Positions 11,112 to 46,659 of a stretch of 51,095 bases of DNA are shown piece after piece. The position numbers were made by a program, and so were the translations under genes. Numbering within the stretch: the first letter of the stretch is position 1; every line of letters starts with the position of its first letter. This DNA comes from an uncultured Chitinophaga sp. (GTDB lineage Bacteria > Bacteroidota > Bacteroidia > Flavobacteriales_D > Crocinitomicaceae), in contig CAZHLZ010000001.1 in the NCBI GenBank assembly GCA_964532475.1, positions 14,891 to 65,985 on the forward strand, written 5' to 3'. A model generated the notes under the pieces. That model ran no database searches, was not told the origin of the DNA, and saw only the letters and a list, made by a program, of their open reading frames with translations.

Positions 11112-11812
11112 AGTTTTTGTTCCACAAGTTTTAAACGTTTTCCTCCAAAAAACACATAAAATCGAATTTTTGGAATCTCATTCTTATTACTTTGCTCAAT
11201 TTTATACGAATAAGAAATAGTAGAAAAACTTGAAAATTTATTGTCACGAATAAAATCAATTTTAAGTAATTCCTTTTTTATCAATTCACTAAATTCAATT
11301 TCATTGTACAGAGGAACTGGAAATTCTTGCTGATTTTTTCTAAAAAATAAATGTATTGAGCTTCTTGAATCTTTTTCATTAAAGTAACATTTCCCTTTGA
11401 ATTTACTAATCGGTAACTGCATAGAATAAGCATTGATAAGGCCGAAATTTGTGTTAAAATATGGCAAAGCACGCTCAAAAAATCTTTTAATTTTCCAAAA
11501 TTTTTTCCAACTAAATTTTTTATTATAAAAATAGGTCTCTGTAATTAGAGCAAAATCATTTAGAATTTTACTTGAATACAAAGTATCTTTCTTTTTTTTT
11601 GCACTCACTAAAGAATTAAAAAATACATTTTCCAATTGAACATCAAAATTTGATTTGATATTTATTTCATTTGAATCAAGCGTACTTGCTTTAATTTCTG
11701 AATAAAAATCTTGACGATTGACGATATCTGCCAACCTTTTTATGCAAAATTTTCTTTGTCCAATCGAATGAAAGGATAACAATATACTGATTAATATGGA
11801 TAAAATTTTCAT
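11090..11812 (-). CDS. Secreted hypothetical protein (240 aa)
   Basis: Signal peptide MKILSILISILLSFHSIGQ. There is a 1-nt TAATG overlap with the upstream LRR gene. Its stop codon lies in the loop of the duplicated terminator. Confidence 0.6.
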   Translation of the reverse strand: MKILSILISILLSFHSIGQRKFCIKRLADIVNRQDFYSEIKASTLDSNEINIKSNFDVQLENVFFNSLVSAKKKKDTLYSSKILNDFALITETYFYNKKFSWKKFWKIKRFFERALPYFNTNFGLINAYSMQLPISKFKGKCYFNEKDSRSSIHLFFRKNQQEFPVPLYNEIEFSELIKKELLKIDFIRDNKFSSFSTISYSYKIEQSNKNEIPKIRFYVFFGGKRLKLVEQKLKKPQTL

Positions 11813-14337
11813 TAGTCCAAAATACTTTTCCTAATTTCTTCCTCAGTCAAACCTACTGTTGAAAATCGTTTCACATTTGGAACAGATTGTCCATTTTTTA
11901 ATTTTGTCCAAGATTTCACCACAGCAATTTCGAGGGAATTTAAAACATAAAAAAAGATTATTTTCTTAAACAAATATTGTGGGACACGTGAAGATTCAGA
12001 TTCTAAATAAGTGTTGTCAGATCTAATGATTAATCTGGTTGTGCTTGGAACAAAAATTTTTACATTATTTTGATCTCGCATTGAGTCAGCAGTAGCAATA
12101 TAATTTGCTGGAGGATTTCTATAAAAATAATCGCAATTTACCAAGCCGAATTTTTGAAGTCCAAATTTTGTTCGTTCATTTGATAATCGCAAAGAAGGAT
12201 TTAAAAGCTCATTTGCTCGTAAAATTCGATTTAAATCTGCGAATTTCTTTCTATTTTTTTCAAAATGAAGTTTTGCTTTATCAATTTCTGCTTGATTTTT
12301 TTCTTCATATCTTAAATACTTTCTGTAAAAATCATAATTTTCTTTTTGGTAATTTTTGAGGCTTTTCTTTGATTCAATTATTAATGGAACATCGAATTTT
12401 TTTCCTTTATAACTAAACTGAAACATAAACTTATCCTTTTCAAAGTCTGCACTCACTTTAACATCTGAATAATTTCGAGGAGTAAAATCATATAATTTTT
12501 TATTTGTAAAAATTTTAACATTAGCTGTGTCAGAAGCAATCAATTTTATTAATTCATTGTGTTCAGGATAAATTAGGCTGTCAATTATGAGATAGGAATT
12601 TTCTAAAAATTTCAGTCCCTTATCCTCCGTGTAGAAAGTGGTACTTTTGTTATTATAAAATAATTTTTTTTGATTTACATAAAATTCATGCTTGTGATGC
12701 TTTAATGTCAAATAATATTTTCTAGTTTCTTTGAACTTGTGCTTATTTCCTTTTTGATTCAAGTATTGAAGTTTCATTGGGACATGAACAAGATGCATTT
12801 GCGCAAAAAGTGAATCTGGAAGGGCATTTAGTGAATCCATAATTGAATTTTGCGAGCTCGAATTTTGGAGTGTGTTGACATTTTTTTGTAAGCGCTCCCA
12901 ATTTTTCAGTGAATCGTTGTAGGAAAATAAATCTGCTTGTGTGTTTTGTTGAGTATTCTCCATTTCAACTTGGATAATATTTTGTGGATTTGGATTTAAT
13001 TTGTTCCCTTTATCATCGTAAGCATTAAATTCAAACATTCCACTGGAAGAAAATAATTCTGGTGTCCCACTTTCATTCATAATCATTGGAACTCCCGCCA
13101 AAGCTATGCTGATTGGATCAAAATACTCCTTGATTTCAATTTTTACAGTGCCAGAATAAGGCTTCAAGTTTTGGTCTAAAAATGCATTTTTTGGAATATC
13201 AAAAATAGTGTTCTCACTCTGAATTTTACATGGAGTATCAGCTTGAATTTCATGTTTTTCAATCTTCACATCCACAACTTTTTCGACTTGATTTCTAAGC
13301 ATATTTTCACTGAGGGAGAACATTGGGTTTTGCAAATTAGTTTGCTGAATTAAAACGGAATCAAGGTTTGTTGAATTAATAATCTGCACCTTATTTCGTT
13401 TAATTAAATCTTCTTCATTCTCTATAATCGCATCGATGAAAATTAGCTCTTTTTTTGAACTCAAATCTTTTAAATCGCCTTCCAATTTGCTATTTTTAAA
13501 ACTTATTTTGGTAATTTGTTTGAGTTCATTTAAATCATTATACAAATTTTTCGCCTCTATAAAATCACAGTTGTCAAAACTAATCTCCTGAAGATTTTTT
13601 ATATTTGAAAAATTGGGATTTATGTAATTTATGGATGAATTTTTTATCTTTATTTTCCGGATGGAAAGATTATTCATCGCACCGATTGGAAGCTTGTTTT
13701 CATTTTGACTAAAGCTTAATTCTTGCAAATTTTCTTTATTTTGAAGCGAAATAAAAACATTTTCTAGGCTTAATTTTGGATTGTTTTCAAGCTGCAAATA
13801 TTCCAGATCCCACAATTGATTGAGGTAGAAGTTGTCTTCTTTAAGATTGTTAAATGAAAGATTTAGGTATTTCAATTTAACGAGATAATCAAAACTAGGT
13901 GGTAAAAAAGTAATGTTATTGTTACTTAAATCAAGTGTTTCTAAATTCTTTAGTGAACCAAAATTTTCTGGTACAAAGAATAAATTATTTTTCGCTAAAT
14001 TTAGACTTTCGATCCCACTTGAAAAGAAACTTGAAGGAAATTCAAAAAAATTGAGATTTGGATTATCACTTAAGTCAAGACGTTTTAAATGAGTTAATTT
14101 ACTCAAGTCAATTTGAAAATCCTCCAATAAATTATAAGATAAATCTAATTCTTCCAACTCCGTAAAAAGTTCGATTTCCTTTGGGACGAGCTTCAATTTT
14201 TCATGCGATAAATCCAAACTTTTCACACCTGAAGGAGCAATTAATGCTTCCTTTAAATTATCACAATCAATGCATTGCGATAAAATCTCATTTTGAAAGC
14301 TTACAAAAATTAGAATAAAAATCAAGAAATTTTTCAT
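11812..14337 (-). CDS. Secreted leucine-rich-repeat protein (841 aa)
   Basis: Signal peptide, then about 12-13 LRRs (LxxLxLSxNxL, e.g. LEELDLSYNLL, LKRLDLSDNPNL, LETLDLSNNNITFLP). The C-terminal ~500 aa have no recognisable motif. Confidence 0.75.
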   Translation of the reverse strand: MKNFLIFILIFVSFQNEILSQCIDCDNLKEALIAPSGVKSLDLSHEKLKLVPKEIELFTELEELDLSYNLLEDFQIDLSKLTHLKRLDLSDNPNLNFFEFPSSFFSSGIESLNLAKNNLFFVPENFGSLKNLETLDLSNNNITFLPPSFDYLVKLKYLNLSFNNLKEDNFYLNQLWDLEYLQLENNPKLSLENVFISLQNKENLQELSFSQNENKLPIGAMNNLSIRKIKIKNSSINYINPNFSNIKNLQEISFDNCDFIEAKNLYNDLNELKQITKISFKNSKLEGDLKDLSSKKELIFIDAIIENEEDLIKRNKVQIINSTNLDSVLIQQTNLQNPMFSLSENMLRNQVEKVVDVKIEKHEIQADTPCKIQSENTIFDIPKNAFLDQNLKPYSGTVKIEIKEYFDPISIALAGVPMIMNESGTPELFSSSGMFEFNAYDDKGNKLNPNPQNIIQVEMENTQQNTQADLFSYNDSLKNWERLQKNVNTLQNSSSQNSIMDSLNALPDSLFAQMHLVHVPMKLQYLNQKGNKHKFKETRKYYLTLKHHKHEFYVNQKKLFYNNKSTTFYTEDKGLKFLENSYLIIDSLIYPEHNELIKLIASDTANVKIFTNKKLYDFTPRNYSDVKVSADFEKDKFMFQFSYKGKKFDVPLIIESKKSLKNYQKENYDFYRKYLRYEEKNQAEIDKAKLHFEKNRKKFADLNRILRANELLNPSLRLSNERTKFGLQKFGLVNCDYFYRNPPANYIATADSMRDQNNVKIFVPSTTRLIIRSDNTYLESESSRVPQYLFKKIIFFYVLNSLEIAVVKSWTKLKNGQSVPNVKRFSTVGLTEEEIRKSILD

Positions 14338-30636: not shown

Positions 30637-30645
30637 TAAAAAAAC

Positions 30646-31017
30646 AAATCATAAGCCGGGTTCTGTTTCAACAAATTCAAGAAGAAAGTGTTTAGCTATC
30701 ATTTCTCTAGTTCCGACTTCACAATCGGAATCAATCGACCTACCCTCTGAGTTGGACGAGCAGCCCTTTTATCCGAAAAATCGGAAATCCCCAGTTTACA
30801 TGGTCTTTCAGTTCGTAAGGTTTACCTTGCACTAATTATCACTAATTAGACGGTGAGCTCTTACCTCGCCTTTTCACCTTTTCCCCAAACAAGTTCGGGG
30901 TAGTTTTCCTTTCTGTGGCACTTTCTGTCTTCGTTTACACGAATCCTTCCCGTTAGGAAGTACGATGCTCTGCACTGCCCAGACTTTCCTCCTACCGTAG
31001 CAGGCGATAGCTGATTT
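30646..31017 (-). ncRNA. rnpB: RNase P RNA, bacterial type A
   Basis: On the minus strand, GAGGAAAGTCTGGGC lies near the 5' end (plus 30976-30990) and ACAGAACCCGGCTTA near the 3' end (plus 30652-30666). The P1 pairing is AAATCA / TGATTT. Length is about 372 nt. Confidence 0.85.
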
Positions 31018-31024
31018 GTAAAAA

Positions 31025-35592: not shown

Positions 35593-38262
35593 TTAAAGAA
35601 TCACACTTCCCAACCAGCGTTCCATTTCTTCAAACGACTTTCCTTTTCGTTCAGCAATGGATTTCACTTGCTCGTTAGTGATTTTTCCTAATCCAAAATA
35701 CTTGGCTTGTGGATGCGCAAAATACCAACCTGAAACAGAGGCTGTTGGATACATCGCTAAACTTTCAGTTAAACTTACTCCGCTCAATTTCGTTGCATCT
35801 AAGATTTCAAATAAAGTTACTTTTTCGGTGTGGTCTGGACAAGCTGGATATCCTGGTGCAGGACGAATTCCACGGTATTTTTCTTTGATTAAATCGTCGT
35901 TTTGTAAGTTTTCGTCGCTCGCGTAGCCCCAATAATCTTTACGAACCAATTCGTGCAAATGTTCCGCAAAAGCTTCTGCCAAACGATCTCCAAGTGCTTT
36001 TAGCAAAATAGAAGAATAATCATCGTGGTCTTTTTCAAATTCAGCTACTTTTTCGTCTAAGCCAAGGCCCGTTGTGACAACAAAGGCACCCAAATAATCA
36101 GCAAAATTCGTTTCTTTAGGTGCAATAAAGTCTGCTAAGGCAATATTCGGAACTCCTTGCGCTTTTGTTGTTTGTTGACGTAAACTGTATTGAACAGCTT
36201 GTATTTTTGAACGCGAATCATCGGTATAAATTTCGATATCATCTCCAATCGCATTCGCTGGAAATAAACCAAATACAGCATTCGCTTGCAACCATTTTTC
36301 ACTGACAATTTTCTGCAACATTTCTTGTGCATCAGCAAAAAGTTTTGTTGCTTCCACTCCAACCACTTCGTCTTCTAAAATATTCGGATATTTTCCGTGC
36401 AGTTCCCACGTTTGGAAAAAAGGTGTCCAATCGATGTAAGGAACTAATTTATGTAAGGGATAAGCTTTCAATTCCTTAACGCCCAATTCTTTTGGTTTCG
36501 CAATATCTTCAGCCTTCCATTCAATTTGGAATTTATTTTTTTGTGCTTGTTCTAAAGAAAGTAAATTCTTTTCTGAACGGTGCTTTTCGTGGTGTTCGCG
36601 TAGTTTTTGATAATCTGCTTTTAGCTCATTGACAAAATCGTCTTTTTTGTGTCCCAATAAACTTTCCACAACTGTAACTGCTCGAGAAGCATCTAAGACG
36701 TGAACCGTTTGTCCTTTGGTGTAATTTTGTTCAATTTTTACGGCAGTATGAACTCGTGAAGTTGTCGCACCACCAATCATCAAAGGAATCGACAAGCCAG
36801 CACGTTCCATTTCTTTAGCAACATGCACCATTTCATCCAAAGAAGGAGTAATCAAACCACTTAATCCAATCACATCCACATTTTCTTTGATGGCAGTTTC
36901 GATGATTTTTTCCGTTGGAACCATCACACCAATATCGATCACTTCATAGTTATTACAGCCTAAAACAACACCCACAATATTTTTTCCAATGTCGTGAACG
37001 TCGCCTTTTACAGTTGCCATCAAGACTTTTCCTGCTGAGGAACTTTTTCCATTTTTTTCGGCCTCAATATAAGGAAGTAAAACGGCAACAGCTTTCTTCA
37101 TTACACGAGCAGATTTTACAACTTGTGGCAAGAACATTTTTCCGCTACCGAATAAATCTCCAACCACGTTCATTCCATCCATCAATGGACCTTCAATCAC
37201 TTCAATTGGTCGCGCATATAATTTTCTGCATTCTTCCGTGTCTTCGTCAATAAATTCAACGATTCCTTTTACCAAGGCATGTTTTAATCGTTCTTGCACA
37301 GAAACATTTCTCCACGATAAATCCACTTCTTTCTTAGTGGCATCGCCTTTCACTGTTTCCGCAAATTCTAATAATCTTTCAGTAGCGTCAGGTCTGCGAT
37401 TCAACATCACATCTTCCACATGTTCCAACAAATCTTTCGGGATATCGTCGTAAATCTCAATCATCGTTGGATTCACAATTCCCATGTCCATTCCTTCTTT
37501 GATTGCATGATACAAAAACACGGAATGCATGGCTTCACGCACTTTGTTATTTCCTCTAAATGAGAAAGAAACATTTGAAACACCACCACTTACATGCGCA
37601 CCTGGCAGATTTGTACGAATCCATTTTGTCGCTCTGAAAAAATCCAAGGCATTGTTATTGTGTTCGTCCATGCCCGTTGCCACAGGGAAAATATTTGGAT
37701 CGAAAATAATATCCTGAGCTGGGAAATTTACTTTATCTACCAAAACACGGTAAGAGCGTTCGCAAATTTCAATTCTTCGTTCATACGAATCCGCTTGACC
37801 TTGTTCATCAAAAGCCATCACAATTACTGCTGCACCGTAACGTTTGATTTTTTTGGCTTGAGCAATGAAGTTTTCTTCTCCTTCTTTCAAGGAAATTGAG
37901 TTTACAATACCTTTTCCTTGAATGCATTGCAAACCAGCTTCAATGATTTCCCATTTCGAACTGTCAATCATCACTGGAATACGCGAAATATCTGGTTCAG
38001 AAGCCATCAAATTCAAAAATTTAACCATCGCTTCTTTACCGTCAATCATTCCTTCATCCATATTCACATCGATGATTTGCGCACCACCTTCAACCTGCTC
38101 CAAGGCAACAGAAAGAGCATCTTCAAAGCGATTTTCTTGAATCATGCGCAAAAAAGCACGTGAGCCAGTTACGTTGGTGCGTTCACCTATGTTGATGAAA
38201 TTTGATTCTGGCGTTACAACCAATGGCTCAAGACCGGATAATTTTAATGGGGGTAAATTCAT
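35593..38262 (-). CDS. metH: Methionine synthase, pterin-binding + B12-binding + AdoMet-activation modules
   Basis: Begins at the LKLSGLEPL linker motif. [12 protein letters not shown] is the B12 DxHxxG motif. The 889 aa are collinear with E. coli MetH from about residue 345 to the end. Confidence 0.93.
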
Positions 38263-38271
38263 AATAATTTA

Positions 38272-38321
38272 GAATGAAGAATGTAGAATTGAGAATATTG
38301 TTCCGTATTCAATCCACATCC
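38272..38321. repeat. Heptad-phased array at the 3' flank of four-helix-bundle gene 2
   Basis: GAATGAA GAATGTA GAATTGA GAATATT followed by a degenerate inverted copy (ATTCAATCCACATCC). Confidence 0.8.
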
Positions 38322-38328
38322 TTAAAAT

Positions 38329-38688
38329 TTAGATTTTATTTGTTCTTTGTTTCGTTGTTAAAATACTACTGGAAAGCATTTTATGAATTTCATTTGACTT
38401 TGAATACAAATTGTCAAATTCATTTTTATTTAAATAATTAGAATCTAATAGTAATTCTAACCAATACTGAGATTCACCACATTCTTTTAAAGAAATCGAT
38501 AATTTGTGAATGAAATCAGCTGGACTTTGAGCATTATTTGCTTCACGAATGTTAGCTCCAACTGAAGTTGCTGATCTTACTAATTGTTTACTCAAAATGA
38601 ATTCTTTTTTTTCTATCAATTGTTTGTAGAGAGAAATGGAGTCAAGAGCAAATGAATAACTTTTCGTTTTTAAAAAATTTTCTTTCAT
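38329..38688 (-). CDS. Four-helix-bundle protein (23S rRNA intervening-sequence protein / Avd-like family)
   Basis: Family pattern: SYSFALDSISLYKQL, RSATSVGANIREA, FIHKLSISLKECGESQYWLELL. Confidence 0.8.
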   Translation of the reverse strand: MKENFLKTKSYSFALDSISLYKQLIEKKEFILSKQLVRSATSVGANIREANNAQSPADFIHKLSISLKECGESQYWLELLLDSNYLNKNEFDNLYSKSNEIHKMLSSSILTTKQRTNKI

Positions 38689-38725
38689 AATGTTTAGTTT
38701 AAAAGTGAAATCTAATTTAATAATA

Positions 38726-38767
38726 AATTCTCAATTCTCCACTTTTAATTCTACATTCTCTATTTTA
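38726..38767. repeat. Heptad-phased array at the 5' flank of four-helix-bundle gene 2
   Basis: AATTCTC AATTCTC CACTTTT AATTCTA CATTCTC TATTTTA. 38747-38759 is the perfect 13-nt reverse complement of 38278-38290. Confidence 0.85.
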
Positions 38768-39747
38768 CGAGGTTCATACTTTTTCGCCAAATCCGCTATC
38801 ACTTTGATATGTGCCGGAGTTGTTCCGCAACAGCCACCGATGATGTTTACAAGGTGCTCATCCAAAAAGGTTTTGATTTGTTCACCCATGAGTTCTGCAG
38901 TTTCATCGTATTGACCGAACTCGTTTGGTAAACCTGCGTTTGGATGTGCTGAAACGGCGAAGGGAGATTCTTTATCCAAAATCTGCAAATAAGGACGCAT
39001 CATGGAAGCTCCTAAGGCACAGTTTAGACCAATACTTAGCAATGGCATGTGAGAAACTGAAATCAAAAATGCTTCAGTTGTTTGTCCAGTCAAGGTTCTT
39101 CCAGATTGATCGGTAATAGTACCAGAAACCATAATTGGCAATTTCTTATTACGTTCTTCAAAAACCTCATCTATTGCAAACAAGGCAGCCTTTGCGTTTA
39201 AGGTATCAAAAACAGTTTCAACTAACAAAATATCAACTCCACCATCCATCAAGGCATTTACTTGTTGTTTGTAAGCAGTTACCAATTCTTGGAAGGTAAT
39301 CCCTCTAAATCCAGGATCATTTACATCTGGAGAAATGCTTGCAGTTCGGTTTGTTGGACCAATTGAACCGGCAACAAAACGCGGTTTATCAGGATTGAGC
39401 GCTGTGAATTCATCTGCAACTTTTTTGGCAATTTTTGCTGAATGAAAATTAATATCATACACTGCAAATTCTAGATCATAATCCGCTTGCGCGATGGTTG
39501 TTCCAGAAAAAGTATTTGTTTCAGCGATATCTGCACCTGCCTCAAAATATTGACGGTGAATATCTTCTATGATTTCAGGACGTGTCAAGGAAAGTAAATC
39601 GTTGTTTCCTTTTAAAGGCTTGTGGTGATTTTCAAACCAGCCTTTGCGAAAATCTTCTTCTTCGAGTTTATGACGTTGAATCATCGTACCCATTGCTCCG
39701 TCTAAAACAAGAATTCTTTTTTTTAGGATTTCTTCTATTTTGCTCAT
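38731..39747 (-). CDS. metH: Methionine synthase homocysteine-binding (S-methyltransferase) module as a separate ORF
   Basis: LDGAMGT and the GGCCGTTPAHI zinc-ligand motif. It ends at ..YEPRK (E. coli ..APRK linker) plus a 10-aa tail, IENVELKVEN, encoded by the repeat array. The ATG at 39747 is preferred. Confidence 0.9.
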   Translation of the reverse strand: MSKIEEILKKRILVLDGAMGTMIQRHKLEEEDFRKGWFENHHKPLKGNNDLLSLTRPEIIEDIHRQYFEAGADIAETNTFSGTTIAQADYDLEFAVYDINFHSAKIAKKVADEFTALNPDKPRFVAGSIGPTNRTASISPDVNDPGFRGITFQELVTAYKQQVNALMDGGVDILLVETVFDTLNAKAALFAIDEVFEERNKKLPIMVSGTITDQSGRTLTGQTTEAFLISVSHMPLLSIGLNCALGASMMRPYLQILDKESPFAVSAHPNAGLPNEFGQYDETAELMGEQIKTFLDEHLVNIIGGCCGTTPAHIKVIADLAKKYEPRKIENVELKVEN

Positions 39748-39801
39748 AATATCTAATTTATACTTTAAAACATACAAATTAAGAGGGTTGATGAACAAAC
39801 A

Positions 39802-39923
39802 CTTATCTTTTCAGTCAAATTACTGATAGGATTTGGCACCGGTTTTCCAATCCCGATTAATCGGGACTTATAGTTGGTTGCCAAGGTTTCGTAGGGCCTT
39901 ATCCCTCCACCTTTCTTAATAAG
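39802..39923 (-). promoter_or_regulatory. SAM-I (S-box) riboswitch
   Basis: The minus strand reads CUUAUUAAGAAAGGUGGAGGGAUAAGGCCCUACGAAACCUUGGCAACC...GGUGCCAAAUCCUAUCAG...GAAAAGAUAAG. This matches the S-box core and the P1 pairing CUUAU/AUAAG. Confidence 0.85.
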
Positions 39924-40051
39924 TTTCGCTTAAAAAAATTGAATTTTGATAAGCTTATGATTTTAAAGAACTAAGGCAAAATTACTAAAAATTCTTAAAA
40001 AAATTGTTATATTTAAATAAATTTTGAAAACTTACGTTTTAATATACTAAA

Positions 40052-44920: not shown

Positions 44921-44950
44921 TTTTACGTAATTTTACGTAATTTTACGCAA
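44921..44950. promoter_or_regulatory. Three tandem 10-bp units TTTTACGTAA (the third is TTTTACGCAA)
   Basis: Perfect 10-bp periodicity, with the palindrome TTACGTAA in each unit. Located 48-77 nt upstream of the ATG at 44873, just upstream of a TATTTTTG -7 box (44894-44901). Confidence 0.45.
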
Positions 44951-44972: not shown

Positions 44973-45998
44973 TTACCTCAATCCAAGCTGCTTGTATCTT
45001 TCTTCAATTAATTGTGAATACTTGATTTTAAAAGCATCACCAACGAAGCTTTTTTCAAGGACTTCCAACATTTCGGGCTTTGCATATTCAAACAATTCCA
45101 AAGTATTATCCAAGATTTTTTTATTCAAACCGCAAAGTTCGTAAGCAGCCAAAAAATCTGCGTATTTTAATTTCCGTTTCTTGGCATTCAAGGTCAAGGC
45201 TAATTCTTCCGTGTCTGCTTCGTTTACCAAGGCTGTAGGAACCAAATCATACGCTGGACTCAAGCTCATTCCCACCCCTTCTTTTTCCAAGAGGGAAAAG
45301 TTTTTTAGGTGCATGTCGCTGTTTCCCGTAAAGAAACTAAATAACACCAATTCGTAAAAATTGCTGACATCCAACAAGGGAGTCGCTGAATATTTCAGTA
45401 ATAATTTAGCAACTTGTTCGTGGCTACCTTTGTATTTATCTTCCGTCAAACGTTCACTCAATTGGCACATATCTTCCATGTGGAGCTTGCCTTTTCGCGT
45501 TCTATCGACACGTTTTGTGATGTAACACAAAGTTTCATCTTCCAAACGGATTAAACTATGCGGTACAGCTTGCAAGCCACAAGCAGCTGCCATGTGCATG
45601 GTAACGCTTTCTAGTTCTGGCAACTCTGGATAATATTCCGAAGGTGGTTTTAAGATGTAATCGCCATAAAGACCAACTATTGTTAGTTTTTTGGTAAGAT
45701 TTTTTTCTTCTTTTCGATATAAACTTAAGGAAACCTTTGCTTGAACACCTGTGACAGCCATTTGACTTTGGATAACTTGTGTAGCTAAGTCTTGTAAATT
45801 TTCTAGTTTGTAATTGAGTTGCGGAGTTTTGAGTTGTCCGTAAAACCGTTTGTTGCAAGCTTGATGTACTTCTGTATCTGCTTCGTGCAAAGGTTCATAA
45901 CAATGCAAGCAACGCTTTCCGAAAAAGGCAGTTGGCTCATTTACTTCGTACGTAAAATGTGCCTTTCTTGCTAAATATTTCTTTTTAAAATTTTTCAT
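44973..45998 (-). CDS. hipT: HipT-like Ser/Thr kinase toxin (HipA family lacking N-subdomain 1)
   Basis: HipT-type N-terminus CLHCYEPL...HQACNKRFYG, Gly-rich loop MAVTGVQAKVSL, catalytic GNSDMHLKNFS and PAYDLVP. The ATG at 45998 overlaps hipS by 14 nt. Confidence 0.8.
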   Translation of the reverse strand: MKNFKKKYLARKAHFTYEVNEPTAFFGKRCLHCYEPLHEADTEVHQACNKRFYGQLKTPQLNYKLENLQDLATQVIQSQMAVTGVQAKVSLSLYRKEEKNLTKKLTIVGLYGDYILKPPSEYYPELPELESVTMHMAAACGLQAVPHSLIRLEDETLCYITKRVDRTRKGKLHMEDMCQLSERLTEDKYKGSHEQVAKLLLKYSATPLLDVSNFYELVLFSFFTGNSDMHLKNFSLLEKEGVGMSLSPAYDLVPTALVNEADTEELALTLNAKKRKLKYADFLAAYELCGLNKKILDNTLELFEYAKPEMLEVLEKSFVGDAFKIKYSQLIEERYKQLGLR

Positions 45999-46311
45999 TG
46001 TTTTGTACACTTACTGCTCCAATGCAATCTTTACAACAGCTTAAAAGTAAGCCCATTCTGTCTCTGTAATTTATTTTCCAATTTCGTTCTGCAATGTCCA
46101 ATAGCCAACCTTCAGGAATTAGACCATCGAAAAACGAAAACAAGGTGTTGCTGTGAAACACTTCTTTTCGCAAGGGGAACGTTAAACTTATTGCACGTGC
46201 ATCCTTGTCGTTCAAGTAAAACTCATCGTATTGAAAAAAGTATCCTTGTTCATTTTCAGAAATGATGCCACAAAATTTCTCCTTGAAAAGCACTTTTCCG
46301 CTTCTTTCCAT
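45985..46311 (-). CDS. hipS: HipS-like protein (stand-alone HipA N-terminal subdomain)
   Basis: 108 aa. GYFFQYDEFY, FFDGLIPEGW and CCKDCIGAVSV match the HipA N-terminal/couple_hipA region. Confidence 0.8.
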   Translation of the reverse strand: MERSGKVLFKEKFCGIISENEQGYFFQYDEFYLNDKDARAISLTFPLRKEVFHSNTLFSFFDGLIPEGWLLDIAERNWKINYRDRMGLLLSCCKDCIGAVSVQNNEKF

Positions 46312-46313
46312 GC

Positions 46314-46547
46314 TTATTGTAGATTAATTAAATCATCTCTATTCATGGCAACCGGACCCAAATGTTCTCCAAACAAACGCAACACATCGTTCACTTTATC
46401 CATGCGCAAGGTGTTTTTTCCTTGTTCTAAATCTCGAATAAAACGCAAACCAACACCAGCTTTTAAAGCCAATTCAGTTTGCGTCAAACGATTTTGCTTG
46501 CGTTTTAACTTGATGTGTTTGCTTAAATCGCTGAGTTTTTCTTGCAT
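46314..46547 (-). CDS. hipB: XRE-family HTH protein, HipB-like
   Basis: HTH LTQTELALKAGVGLRFIRDLEQGK. The ATG at 46547 is preferred because the TTG-extended start at 46577 would overlap the -7 box. Confidence 0.8.
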   Translation of the reverse strand: MQEKLSDLSKHIKLKRKQNRLTQTELALKAGVGLRFIRDLEQGKNTLRMDKVNDVLRLFGEHLGPVAMNRDDLINLQ

Positions 46548-46566
46548 TTTTATACCCTTTAAAGTA

Positions 46567-46574
46567 CAAATATA
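46567..46574 (-). promoter_or_regulatory. -7 box (TATATTTG) for hipBST
   Basis: TAnnTTTG match 19 nt upstream of the ATG at 46547. Confidence 0.5.
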
Positions 46575-46592
46575 CAAAAATATTGATAATTC

Positions 46593-46608
46593 ATACCATT
46601 ATGGGTAT
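46593..46608. promoter_or_regulatory. Candidate HipB operator 1, ATACC-N6-GGTAT
   Basis: ATACCATTATGGGTAT, with perfect 5-bp half-sites. Confidence 0.5.
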
Positions 46609-46633
46609 ATTTTAATAATATTTAGTATGTTTT

Positions 46634-46649
46634 ATACCTTTTATGGTAT
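46634..46649. promoter_or_regulatory. Candidate HipB operator 2, ATACC-N6-GGTAT
   Basis: ATACCTTTTATGGTAT (extends to TATACC...GGTATA). Its centre is 41 bp from operator 1. Confidence 0.5.
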
Positions 46650-46659
46650 AAATTAAGCG

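What the first reader, a model, noticed from the sequence alone, without database searches (positions are those of the whole stretch)
44973..46547. A tripartite hipB-hipS-hipT toxin-antitoxin module (split HipA kinase) in a Bacteroidota genome
Three tightly packed minus-strand genes follow in order. The first is a 77-aa XRE HTH. After a 2-nt gap comes a 108-aa protein matching HipA N-subdomain 1 (GYFFQYDEFY, FFDGLIPEGW, DCIGAVSV). The third, overlapping it by 14 nt, is a 341-aa kinase core (GNSDMHLKNFS, PAYDLVP). Order and sizes match the HipBST system characterised in E. coli O127 (about 107, 103 and 335 aa), where HipS rather than HipB is the antitoxin. A frameshifted canonical hipA would give the same total length. 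Against that reading, the kinase ORF opens with the HipT-specific N-terminal minidomain (CLHCYEPL...HQACNKRFYG; E. coli HipT has C-x6-PL...Y-x4-LKRLSG), which canonical HipA lacks. The Gly-rich loop reads AVTGVQAK where E. coli HipT has SISGYQPK, so only the second autophosphorylation position can be phosphorylated (Thr). That predicts different autoregulation. The E. coli sequence comparisons are from my recollection.
Basis: partly seen in the sequence, partly recalled or inferred. Interest (0 to 1): 0.7.

Follow-up and report, generated by a model that had tools for sequence, protein, structure and literature searches.

The report
Ordinary HipBST split-kinase toxin-antitoxin module
This is a real three-gene HipB-HipS-HipT toxin-antitoxin operon, but it belongs to a Legionella-type subfamily already reported to be common in Bacteroidota, so it is a correct but ordinary find.

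Summary
Three packed minus-strand genes encode a 77-aa HTH protein (46314-46547), a 108-aa HipA N-subdomain-1 protein (45985-46311) and a 341-aa HipA_C kinase (44973-45998).

- **Family.** The best solved-structure matches are the HipBST proteins themselves. HipT matches Legionella HipT at E=2e-52, E. coli O127 HipT at 2e-17 and HipA at 1e-5. An AF2 model gives the same ranking.
- **The split is not a frameshift.** All 82 related loci with upstream DNA keep separate hipB, hipS and hipT. The 14-nt overlap is conserved in the window's subclade.
- **Intact residues.** The kinase catalytic residues and the HipS Glu-Gly-Trp wedge are present.
- **Operators.** Upstream lie three TATACC-N6-GGTATA palindromes 41 bp apart. 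They sit at the same positions in most relatives, so they are probably HipB operators.
- **Gly loop.** The A-V-T motif is real but common: 103 of 120 close homologues, and 35 of 120 diverse clusters have an acceptor only at that position.
- **Prior literature.** Lin et al. reported HipBST(Lp)-type systems as widespread in Bacteroidota.

Minor new points are a near-invariant CxxC...HxxC motif in the minidomain and a basic N-terminal extension. The target is unknown.

The parts
46314..46547 (-). hipB: 77-aa XRE/HTH DNA-binding protein, the predicted autorepressor of the operon
   Evidence: Pfam HTH_3 (E=1.4e-8). NCBIfam TIGR03070 couple_hipB scores 77 bits against a 71.65 cutoff. The best PDB match is HipB(Lp) 8ezt (E=5e-6). 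It lies upstream of hipS in every related locus with enough DNA.
45985..46311 (-). hipS: 108-aa homologue of HipA N-subdomain 1, the predicted antitoxin. The P66-E67-G68-W69 motif lies at 46105-46116.
   Evidence: Couple_hipA scores 86.5 bits in Pfam and 96.6 bits in TIGR03071. PDB matches are HI_0666 7czo (5e-17), HipS(Lp) (9e-13) and E. coli HipS 7ab3_B (2e-12), with EGW aligned to E. coli E63-G64-W65. PEGW is present in all related loci.
44973..45998 (-). hipT: 341-aa HipA-like Ser/Thr kinase core, the predicted toxin
   Evidence: HipA_C scores 152 bits and there is no Couple_hipA. PDB matches are HipT(Lp) at 2e-52, E. coli HipT at 2e-17 and HipA at 1e-5. The AF2 model has pLDDT 91.5. Foldseek gives TM 0.83/0.89 to HipT(Lp) 7wcf.
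45985..45998 (-). 14-nt hipS/hipT overlap (ATGAAAAATTTTAA), with hipT in the +1 frame relative to hipS
   Evidence: Read from the sequence. The -14 overlap is conserved in about 30 loci of the subclade, whereas the wider family uses a 4-nt ATGA overlap.
45735..45758 (-). Gly-rich loop A81-V82-T83-G84-V85-Q86-A87-K88. Thr83 is the only candidate autophosphorylation site. It is equivalent to E. coli HipT Ser59. The E. coli Ser57 / Legionella Ser54 position is Ala here.
   Evidence: Alignments to HipT(Lp) MSVQGVQKK and to the E. coli loop, which reads MAISG in the S57A crystal variant 7ab3 and MSIAG in the S59A variant 7ab4. The AF2 model is low-confidence only at residues 79-83.
45855..45911 (-). 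N-terminal minidomain motif C30-x2-C33...H45-x2-C48, a candidate metal-binding site
   Evidence: C30 is invariant and C33, H45 and C48 are at least 90% conserved in an 85-sequence alignment with 37% mean identity. The motif is in 114 of 120 diverse cluster representatives. pLDDT is about 93.
45915..45998 (-). Subclade-specific basic N-terminal extension of HipT (residues 1-28, MKNFKKKYLARK...)
   Evidence: MKN[YF]KKKY is conserved in relatives at 60-100% identity, including loci where hipS and hipT do not overlap. It is absent from the approximately 313-aa HipTs of wider Bacteroidota. AF2 predicts a helix at residues 4-13 with pLDDT 71-80.
45246..45326 (-). Catalytic motif G225-N-S-D228-M-H230-L-K232-N233 and the Mg-binding D251 (PAYD)
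   Evidence: These align to the HipT(Lp) and E. coli HipT catalytic motifs. They are nearly invariant in A2, together with K117, R163, D165 and R166.
46633..46650 (.). Operator-like palindrome O3 (distal): TATACCTTTTATGGTATA, a perfect TATACC-N6-GGTATA
   Evidence: It is conserved at about -102/-103 from the hipB ATG in related loci.
46592..46609 (.). Operator-like palindrome O2: CATACCATTATGGGTATA (1 mismatch), 41 bp from O3
   Evidence: It is conserved at about -62 in related loci.
46551..46568 (.). Operator-like palindrome O1 (proximal): TATACCCTTTAAAGTACA (2 mismatches), 41 bp from O2, ending 3 nt before the hipB ATG
   Evidence: It is conserved at about -21 in related loci. Its deviating TG overlaps a TAnnTTTG box.
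46567..46574 (-). TATATTTG, a match to the Bacteroidota -7 promoter consensus TAnnTTTG, overlapping operator O1
   Evidence: Read from the sequence. The same box sits at the same offset in 33 of 71 related loci. The consensus itself is from my knowledge of Bacteroides and Flavobacterium promoters and was not tested here.

Best explanation
This is a chromosomal type II toxin-antitoxin operon of the HipBST family, in the Legionella-type (HipBST-Lp) subclade that is widespread in Bacteroidota.

Shown here:
- The three proteins are homologues of HipB, HipS and HipT.
- The kinase core has all catalytic residues.
- The split into hipS and hipT is conserved across many genomes.
- An array of three 18-bp palindromes, spaced 41 bp apart and overlapping the likely promoter, is conserved upstream of hipB.

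Inferred from the characterised E. coli and Legionella systems:
[quoted passage not shown] This is probably part of the translation machinery, such as an aminoacyl-tRNA synthetase, but its identity is unknown.
- HipS binds HipT as the antitoxin. It places Glu67/Trp69 next to the Gly-rich loop, holds the loop ejected and blocks ATP binding.
- A HipB dimer binds the TATACC-N6-GGTATA operators and represses the operon. It probably joins HipS-HipT into a larger complex and does not neutralise HipT by itself.
- Autophosphorylation, if it occurs, can use only Thr83, the equivalent of E. coli Ser59. It probably modulates the HipS-HipT interplay.
For: - Domains.
- Solved-structure matches: each protein matches HipBST components. 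HipT gives 181 bits to HipT(Lp), 66 bits to E. coli HipT and 28 bits to HipA.
- Structure: the AF2 model (pLDDT 91.5, pTM 0.91) matches HipT(Lp) at TM 0.83/0.89 and rmsd 2.2 A over 317 columns. E. coli HipT follows at TM 0.76 and HipA at about 0.65.
- Catalytic residues: K117, R163-x-D165-R166, D228, H230, K232, N233 and D251 are conserved.
- HipS wedge: E67-G68-W69 aligns to E. coli HipS E63/W65, whose W65A mutant fails to neutralise.
- Architecture: all 82 related loci with upstream DNA have separate hipB, hipS and hipT, and none is fused. They come from Flavobacterium, Chitinophaga, Saprospiraceae, Hymenobacter, Bacteroides and others.
- Kinase length: 120 of the closest homologues are 325-349 aa HipA_C-only kinases.
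- Operators in the window: 4 matches against 1.06 expected, and 3 of them lie in the 100 bp upstream of hipB.
- Operators in relatives: of 72 loci, 66 have at least 2 sites and 56 at least 3. Density is 11.2 per kb in the promoter region against 0.06 per kb elsewhere. Spacing is 40 or 41 bp in 126 of 133 neighbouring pairs.
- Literature: HipB(Lp) binds the 200-bp region upstream of its operon in EMSA. HipBST(Lp) homologues are reported as widely distributed in the FCB superphylum, including Bacteroidota.
Against: - No functional data exist for this locus or any Bacteroidota member. Toxicity, the antitoxin role of HipS, the target and phosphorylation are all inferred.
- The nearest characterised relative, HipT(Lp), has an unknown target that is not TrpS or GltX, so the step from kinase to growth arrest is the weakest link.
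- Legionella HipS lacks the Trp wedge (I65/M66 instead). The wedge mechanism therefore mixes features of two subclades.
- Ala at the Ser57/Ser54-equivalent position removes the site that is phosphorylated in Legionella and was judged the more important one in E. coli.
- The sigma-70-type promoter scan is uninformative for Bacteroidota. The -33 element is poor.
Confidence: 0.9

Rival explanations
1. The locus is a canonical hipBA module whose hipA has been broken by a frameshift, either a sequencing or assembly error or a recent pseudogenising mutation in the A/T-rich junction. The apparent hipS and hipT would then be two halves of one gene of about 445 aa.
For: The junction ATGAAAAATTTTAA is rich in homopolymer runs. 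Fused relatives of 440-457 aa with Couple_hipA, minidomain and HipA_C exist in the same family. A fusion here would place the Gly loop at about residue 185, similar to its position in those relatives (181-192).
Against: None of 82 related loci is fused. The same +1-frame, 14-nt overlap recurs in about 30 independently assembled genomes at 60-98% HipT identity, while more distant ones use an ATGA overlap. A contig with a 98% identical HipT has the identical arrangement. The HipT N-terminus MKN[YF]KKKY is conserved as protein even where the genes do not overlap.
Confidence: 0.01
2. The genes are separate, but a fused HipS-HipT protein is also made by programmed +1 ribosomal frameshifting at the hipS stop. 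At UUU UAA, tRNA-Phe can re-pair on the overlapping UUU, which gives the cell a HipA-like full-length kinase at low level.
For: In the window the last hipS codon and stop read TTT TAA. A +1 slip re-pairs perfectly and enters the hipT frame at codon 5 (sequence; worked out by hand). The conserved 14-nt overlap could point to a functional junction.
Against: The slippery UUU UAA is not conserved. Most relatives with the same overlap end hipS with TTA TAA or CTA TAA (..NEEL*), where a +1 slip cannot re-pair. The overlap is explained by conservation of the HipT N-terminal peptide.
Confidence: 0.02
3. The module's main biological role is anti-phage abortive infection or defence rather than persistence or addiction. 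The same parts are used, but HipT would be released on infection.
For: There are weak PADLOC matches of HipT and HipS to the candidate defence system PDC-M03 (M03A at E=1.3e-9, M03B at E=2e-3). TA modules in general are implicated in phage defence (stated in the Gerdes 2021 abstract). The genomic context differs between genomes, as expected for accessory genes.
Against: The PADLOC hits are weak and reflect a shared fold, not membership. No other defence genes, integrases or phage genes adjoin the module. Its neighbours are T9SS-sorted and unknown surface proteins. The module's GC content (37.6%) lies within the window's ORF range of 33.8 +/- 3.4%.
Confidence: 0.1
4. HipB is the real antitoxin, as in HipBA, and HipS is only a structural lid subunit needed for kinase activity.
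For: HipS corresponds to N-subdomain 1, which is an integral part of active HipA. In fused relatives the same domain is present in a presumably active kinase.
Against: In both characterised HipBST systems HipS neutralises HipT and HipB alone does not. This HipB is only 77 aa and has no C-terminal Trp, which HipB of E. coli K-12 has been proposed to place in a pocket on HipA. The HipS Trp wedge residue is conserved.
Confidence: 0.05

Closest known systems
HipBST of Legionella pneumophila (Lpg2368-2370; PDB 7vkb, 7vkc, 7wcf, 8ezr, 8ezs, 8ezt)
   Same: It has the same three-gene order with tight or overlapping genes. HipT is the closest solved relative (E=2e-52, 37-41% identity, TM 0.83-0.89). 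HipB is short, about 76-77 aa. RxDR, the catalytic residues and the Mg-binding residues are all conserved. The published subclade is reported as widespread in the FCB superphylum, including Bacteroidota.
   Different: The Gly loop is A-V-T here and S54-V-Q in Legionella, so the phospho-acceptor sits at the other position. HipS here keeps the Trp wedge (E-G-W), where Legionella has I65/M66. The CxxC...HxxC minidomain motif did not align at sequence level to HipT(Lp): the phmmer match starts only at query residue 77. HipT here has an extra 28-residue basic N-terminal extension and overlaps hipS by 14 nt rather than 4 nt.
HipBST of enteropathogenic E. coli O127:H6 (PDB 7ab3, 7ab4, 7ab5)
   Same: It is tripartite, with HipS homologous to HipA N-subdomain 1 and HipT as the kinase core plus an N-terminal minidomain. 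HipS Glu63/Trp65 are conserved here as Glu67/Trp69. Thr83 occupies the Ser59 position.
   Different: It is a distant relative (66 bits, 22-25% identity, TM 0.76). HipB is 107 aa there and 77 aa here. The dual S-I-S acceptors become A-V-T. The E. coli minidomain lacks the Cys/His ligands in the alignment. The TrpS target shown for E. coli cannot be transferred.
Canonical HipBA (E. coli K-12, Shewanella oneidensis)
   Same: It shares the HipA-type Ser/Thr kinase fold and an HTH HipB. It is autoregulated through multiple palindromic operators, which in E. coli are TATCC-N8-GGATA and also 18 bp long (the motif appears in papers found; the details are from my own knowledge).
   Different: That kinase is a single polypeptide of about 440 aa with N-subdomain 1 fused, and HipB is the antitoxin. 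The match is only 25-28 bits to the kinase core and TM is about 0.65.
Fused Couple_hipA-minidomain-HipA_C kinases of 440-457 aa (possibly the 'HipBA-Bu' type of Lin et al.)
   Same: They have the same kinase core, the same CxxC...HxxC minidomain and similar Gly-loop variants, at 37-43% identity to this HipT.
   Different: The HipS-like domain is covalently fused to the kinase. Their operon context was not examined here, and their equivalence to HipBA-Bu was not tested.

Membership tests
HipBST tripartite toxin-antitoxin family | Three adjacent co-oriented genes in the order hipB-hipS-hipT, closely spaced or overlapping | tested here: met
   There is a 2-nt gap and a 14-nt overlap, and all three genes are on the minus strand. 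The same order is found in all related loci with upstream DNA.
HipBST tripartite toxin-antitoxin family | HipT is a HipA-like kinase core that lacks N-subdomain 1 | tested here: met
   HipA_C scores 152 bits and there is no Couple_hipA hit. The protein is 341 aa, within the published HipT range of 291-346 aa.
HipBST tripartite toxin-antitoxin family | HipS is a protein of about 100 aa homologous to HipA N-subdomain 1 | tested here: met
   Couple_hipA scores 86.5 and 96.6 bits. PDB matches include HI_0666, HipS(Lp), E. coli HipS and residues 23-103 of HipA.
HipBST tripartite toxin-antitoxin family | HipB is a small HTH protein encoded first in the operon | tested here: met
   HTH_3 and TIGR03070 couple_hipB, the latter above its cutoff. 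The best PDB match is HipB(Lp).
HipBST tripartite toxin-antitoxin family | The four Hip kinase motifs are intact (Gly-rich loop, activation loop/RxDR, catalytic motif, Mg-binding motif) | tested here: met
   G84-x-Q86-x-K88, K117, R163-x-D165-R166, D228-x-H230-x-K232-N233 and D251 align to HipT(Lp) and E. coli HipT. They are at least 90% conserved in A2.
HipBST tripartite toxin-antitoxin family | The hipS/hipT split is genuine and evolutionarily maintained | tested here: met
   None of 82 loci is fused, and the junctions were inspected.
HipBST tripartite toxin-antitoxin family | HipT is toxic, and HipS rather than HipB neutralises it | not testable with these tools
   This needs co-expression and rescue experiments. 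Only the conserved HipS E-G-W wedge motif supports it indirectly.
HipBST tripartite toxin-antitoxin family | HipB binds the operon's promoter region | tested here: inconclusive
   A conserved array of palindromes spaced 40-41 bp apart lies upstream of hipB in 66 of 72 loci. Binding itself was not tested.
HipBST-Ec subclade (E. coli O127 type) | S-Psi-S dual phosphoserine motif in the Gly-rich loop, with TrpS as target | tested here: not met
   The loop is A-V-T. HipT scores only 66 bits to E. coli HipT against 181 bits to HipT(Lp). The target was not testable.
HipBST-Lp subclade (Legionella/FCB type) | HipT is closer to Lpg2370 than to E. coli HipT or HipA, and the taxonomic range includes Bacteroidota | tested here: met
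   Searches give the ranking. Lin et al. describe the distribution. No tree with the published sequences was built.
Canonical HipBA | A single HipA polypeptide of about 440 aa with N-subdomain 1 fused to the kinase core | tested here: not met
   There are two ORFs in different frames, and this arrangement is conserved.

The most novel reading that the evidence does not exclude
The Bacteroidota-type HipT may be regulated differently from both characterised systems, for three reasons.

- Its N-terminal minidomain, described as 'of unknown significance' in E. coli, would here be a C2HC zinc-binding module. The motif is near-invariant across the family and absent from E. coli HipT; the HipT(Lp) minidomain did not align at sequence level.
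- The only Gly-loop phospho-acceptor is Thr83, the Ser59-equivalent.
- This subclade adds a lysine-rich N-terminal helix.

Together these could couple kinase activity or HipS release to metal or redox state or to nucleic-acid binding. They could also direct the kinase to a target other than TrpS or GltX.
Probability: 0.25. Interest if true: 0.45.

Novelty: new member of a known kind. Interest (0 to 1): 0.2.

Why it matters
The module adds no new principle. HipBST is structurally and genetically characterised in E. coli and Legionella, and the Legionella-type subclade was already reported as common in Bacteroidota.

It has modest value as a reference example for three things the literature read here does not describe for this subclade:

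- A sharply conserved operator array, three or four TATACC-N6-GGTATA sites at a 40-41 bp period. It gives a ready test of HipB autoregulation.
- A near-invariant CxxC...HxxC motif in the minidomain of unknown function.
- The spread of phospho-acceptor states in the Gly loop. Among 120 diverse clusters, 37 have both acceptors, 35 only the second, 27 only the first and 21 neither. Autophosphorylation control is therefore not uniform in the family.

Tried and rejected
- **Frameshifted hipA.** Rejected, because none of 82 related loci is fused and the overlap is conserved.
- **Programmed +1 frameshift at UUU UAA.** Considered because the window's junction would allow perfect re-pairing. Rejected because most relatives end hipS with UUA UAA or CUA UAA.
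- **AF2 with a shallow alignment.** An alignment of 23 sequences at 79% identity or more failed (mean pLDDT 39) and was not used. A second run with 85 diverse sequences succeeded.
- **Minidomain alone against PDB sequences.** Nothing significant was found.
- **Sigma-70 promoter and terminator scan.** Not above shuffled expectation, and not suited to Bacteroidota.
- **Gerdes 2021 Table S1.** I searched it for Bacteroidota entries, but the stored file is truncated and uses coded labels, so nothing could be concluded.
- **PADLOC.** Only weak fold-level hits to the candidate system PDC-M03.
- **Horizontal transfer signal.** GC content gives no clear signal.
- **Second hip locus.** None is present in the window.
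Full report
**Observation**

The ORF list and sequence show three co-oriented minus-strand genes.

- hipB: 46314-46547, 77 aa from the ATG.
- hipS: 45985-46311, 108 aa, after a 2-nt gap.
- hipT: 44973-45998, 341 aa, overlapping hipS by 14 nt in the +1 frame.

- hipB matches HTH_3 and TIGR03070 couple_hipB (77 bits, above the curated cutoff).
- hipS matches Couple_hipA (86.5 and 96.6 bits).
- hipT matches HipA_C (152 bits), with no N-subdomain-1 match.

The E. coli values it recalled (107/103/335 aa; an S-I-S loop) match the papers.

**What it is**

Searching solved structures by sequence returns HipBST components for all three proteins.

- HipT matches Legionella HipT at E=2e-52 (181 bits), E. 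coli O127 HipT at 2e-17 (66 bits) and canonical HipA at about 1e-5.
- HipS matches H. influenzae HI_0666 (5e-17), HipS(Lp) (9e-13) and E. coli HipS (2e-12).
- HipB's best match is HipB(Lp) (5e-6).

An AF2 model built on a diverse 85-sequence alignment is confident (pLDDT 91.5, pTM 0.91). Only the Gly-rich loop, residues 79-83, is uncertain. Foldseek ranks the hits the same way.

- HipT(Lp) first: TM 0.83/0.89, rmsd 2.2 A over 317 columns, so the minidomain is included.
- E. coli HipT next: TM about 0.76.
- HipA last: about 0.65.

The module therefore belongs to the HipBST family, in the Legionella-type subclade.

**Is the split real?**

The kinase has thousands of homologues. The 120 closest are all HipA_C-only proteins of 325-349 aa, mostly from Flavobacterium.

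I fetched 84 related loci, 4 by protein identity and 80 species genomes. I located all three genes by tblastn and ORF tracing. Every locus with enough upstream DNA has hipB, hipS and hipT in that order, and none of 82 is fused.

The taxa include Flavobacterium, Crocinitomicaceae, Chitinophaga, Ferruginibacter, Saprospiraceae, Hymenobacter, Pontibacter, Paludibacter, Bacteroides and Ignavibacteria. The 14-nt overlap recurs in about 30 loci of the window's subclade. The wider family uses an ATGA overlap. A frameshift artefact is excluded.

This is not discriminating.

- Thirteen of the 150 listed 50%-identity representatives are proteins of 408-457 aa.
- Most of these carry the same CxxC...HxxC minidomain ahead of the Gly loop.
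- The four I scanned have Couple_hipA at the N-terminus and HipA_C after it.
- The minidomain alone has no significant PDB sequence match.

I also considered programmed +1 frameshifting at the window's UUU UAA junction. I rejected it because most relatives have UUA UAA.

**Functional residues**

The catalytic set is intact and at least 90% conserved across the family: K117, R163-x-D165-R166, D228-x-H230-x-K232-N233 and D251.

HipS carries P66-E67-G68-W69, aligned to E. coli HipS Glu63/Trp65. In E. coli, Trp65 wedges next to the ejected Gly loop, and W65A abolishes neutralisation. PEGW is present in every related locus. Legionella HipS instead has I65/M66.

**Gly-rich loop**

The loop reads A81-V82-T83-G-V-Q-A-K.

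- Legionella has S54-V-Q56, with Ser54 phosphorylated.
- E. coli has S57-I-S59.

This is not unusual, however.

- A-V-T is found in 103 of 120 close homologues.
- T-V-T predominates in more distant Bacteroidota loci.
- Among 120 diverse cluster representatives, 37 have both acceptors, 35 only the second, 27 only the first and 21 neither.

**Regulation**

The 113-bp region upstream of hipB holds three 18-bp palindromes matching TATACC-N6-GGTATA. They lie at 46633-46650 (perfect), 46592-46609 (1 mismatch) and 46551-46568 (2 mismatches), exactly 41 bp apart. The whole window has 4 matches against 1.06 expected, and no shuffle reached 4.

The array is conserved in relatives.

- Sites sit at about -21, -62 and -102 from the hipB ATG, and often also at -143.
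- Of 72 loci, 66 have at least 2 sites and 56 have at least 3.
- Density is 11.2 per kb in the promoter region against 0.06 per kb elsewhere.
- Spacing is 40 or 41 bp in 126 of 133 neighbouring pairs.

The proximal site overlaps TATATTTG, a match to the Bacteroidota -7 box TAnnTTTG (consensus from my own knowledge). This box recurs at the same offset in 33 of 71 loci. It also explains why the left arm of the proximal site consistently deviates (TG instead of TA).

I take these sites to be HipB operators. HipB(Lp) binds the upstream region of its own operon in EMSA. E. coli hipBA uses repeated TATCC-N8-GGATA operators of the same 18-bp length (the motif is found in papers; the details are from my own knowledge). 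Binding at this locus is inferred, not shown.

**Mechanism proposed**

- HipT is a Ser/Thr kinase toxin.
- HipS binds it and keeps the Gly loop ejected, which blocks ATP binding.
- HipB dimers repress the operon at the three operators and probably bridge HipS-HipT pairs.
- Thr83 is the only candidate autophosphorylation site.
- The target is unknown. E. coli HipT hits TrpS, but neither TrpS nor GltX rescues HipT(Lp) toxicity, and its target is unresolved.

**Context**

The window is chromosomal. It carries RNase P RNA, a SAM riboswitch, metH and sufBD. It is from Bacteroidota, because T9SS sorting domains occur in neighbouring proteins.

The module's GC content is 37.6%, within the window's ORF range of 33.8 +/- 3.4%. 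Neighbouring genes differ between genomes, which is typical for accessory TA modules. PADLOC gives only weak fold-level hits to candidate system PDC-M03.

**Comparison with the literature and novelty**

Lin et al. state that HipBST(Lp) homologues form a subclade distinct from HipBST(Ec). They report these homologues as widely distributed in the FCB superphylum, including Bacteroidota. The finding is therefore a new member of a known kind.

Three details are not described in the papers I read.

- The conserved operator array.
- A near-invariant C30-x2-C33...H45-x2-C48 motif in the minidomain. C30 is invariant and the other three residues are at least 90% conserved. The motif occurs in 114 of 120 representatives. 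The ligands are absent from E. coli HipT in the alignment. The word 'zinc' is absent from the relevant text of the structural papers.
- A subclade-specific basic N-terminal extension, MKN[YF]KKKY.

These are leads, not results.

**Verdict**

The locus is ordinary.

Noticed in passing
window 45855-45911 (minus), HipT residues 30-48: A C-x2-C...H-x2-C motif lies in the N-terminal minidomain. It is near-invariant across the family, in both split and fused forms. In the alignment it is missing from E. coli HipT. It is a candidate zinc site that the HipBST structural papers I read do not mention.
   Followed up: partly
window 45915-45998 (minus), HipT residues 1-28: The window's subclade (HipT 60-100% identical) has a lysine-rich N-terminal extension, MKN[YF]KKKY.., that is absent from the approximately 313-aa HipTs of other Bacteroidota. 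It is conserved even where hipS and hipT do not overlap. AF2 predicts a helix at residues 4-13.
   Followed up: partly
window 44921-44947: A perfect tandem repeat TTTTACGTAA x2.7, containing the palindrome TTACGTAA twice, lies between the hipT stop and the start of the next minus-strand gene (44873). It is not seen as a repeat in the more distant related loci.
   Followed up: partly
window 35593-39925 (minus): A SAM riboswitch (39800-39925) precedes a methionine synthase that is split into two ORFs. One is a 355-aa homocysteine-binding part (38731-39798) and the other an 889-aa remainder (35593-38262). About 470 nt separate them.
   Followed up: no
window 30640-31019 (minus): A bacterial class A RNase P RNA (233 bits) confirms that the window is chromosomal.
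   Followed up: no
P0247, P0256, P0260, P0264 (representative proteins, 620-632 aa): These relatives have the minidomain and HipA_C kinase at the N-terminus, followed by a C-terminal extension of about 300 aa with no Pfam hit in the one scanned (P0256). They may be related to the long HipL-type kinases.
   Followed up: no
L010 (CALRRY020000017.1), L067, L056, L077: An 82%-identical module lies on a contig labelled Variovorax paradoxus MAG. Others lie on contigs labelled Caenarcaniphilales and Ignavibacteria. The first is probably a binning error. The Ignavibacteria loci fit the FCB-wide distribution.
   Followed up: no
window 11812-14337 (minus): An 841-aa protein has weak leucine-rich-repeat matches to Xanthomonas type III effectors (XopAE, XopAC, XopL). 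This is probably just an LRR protein.
   Followed up: no
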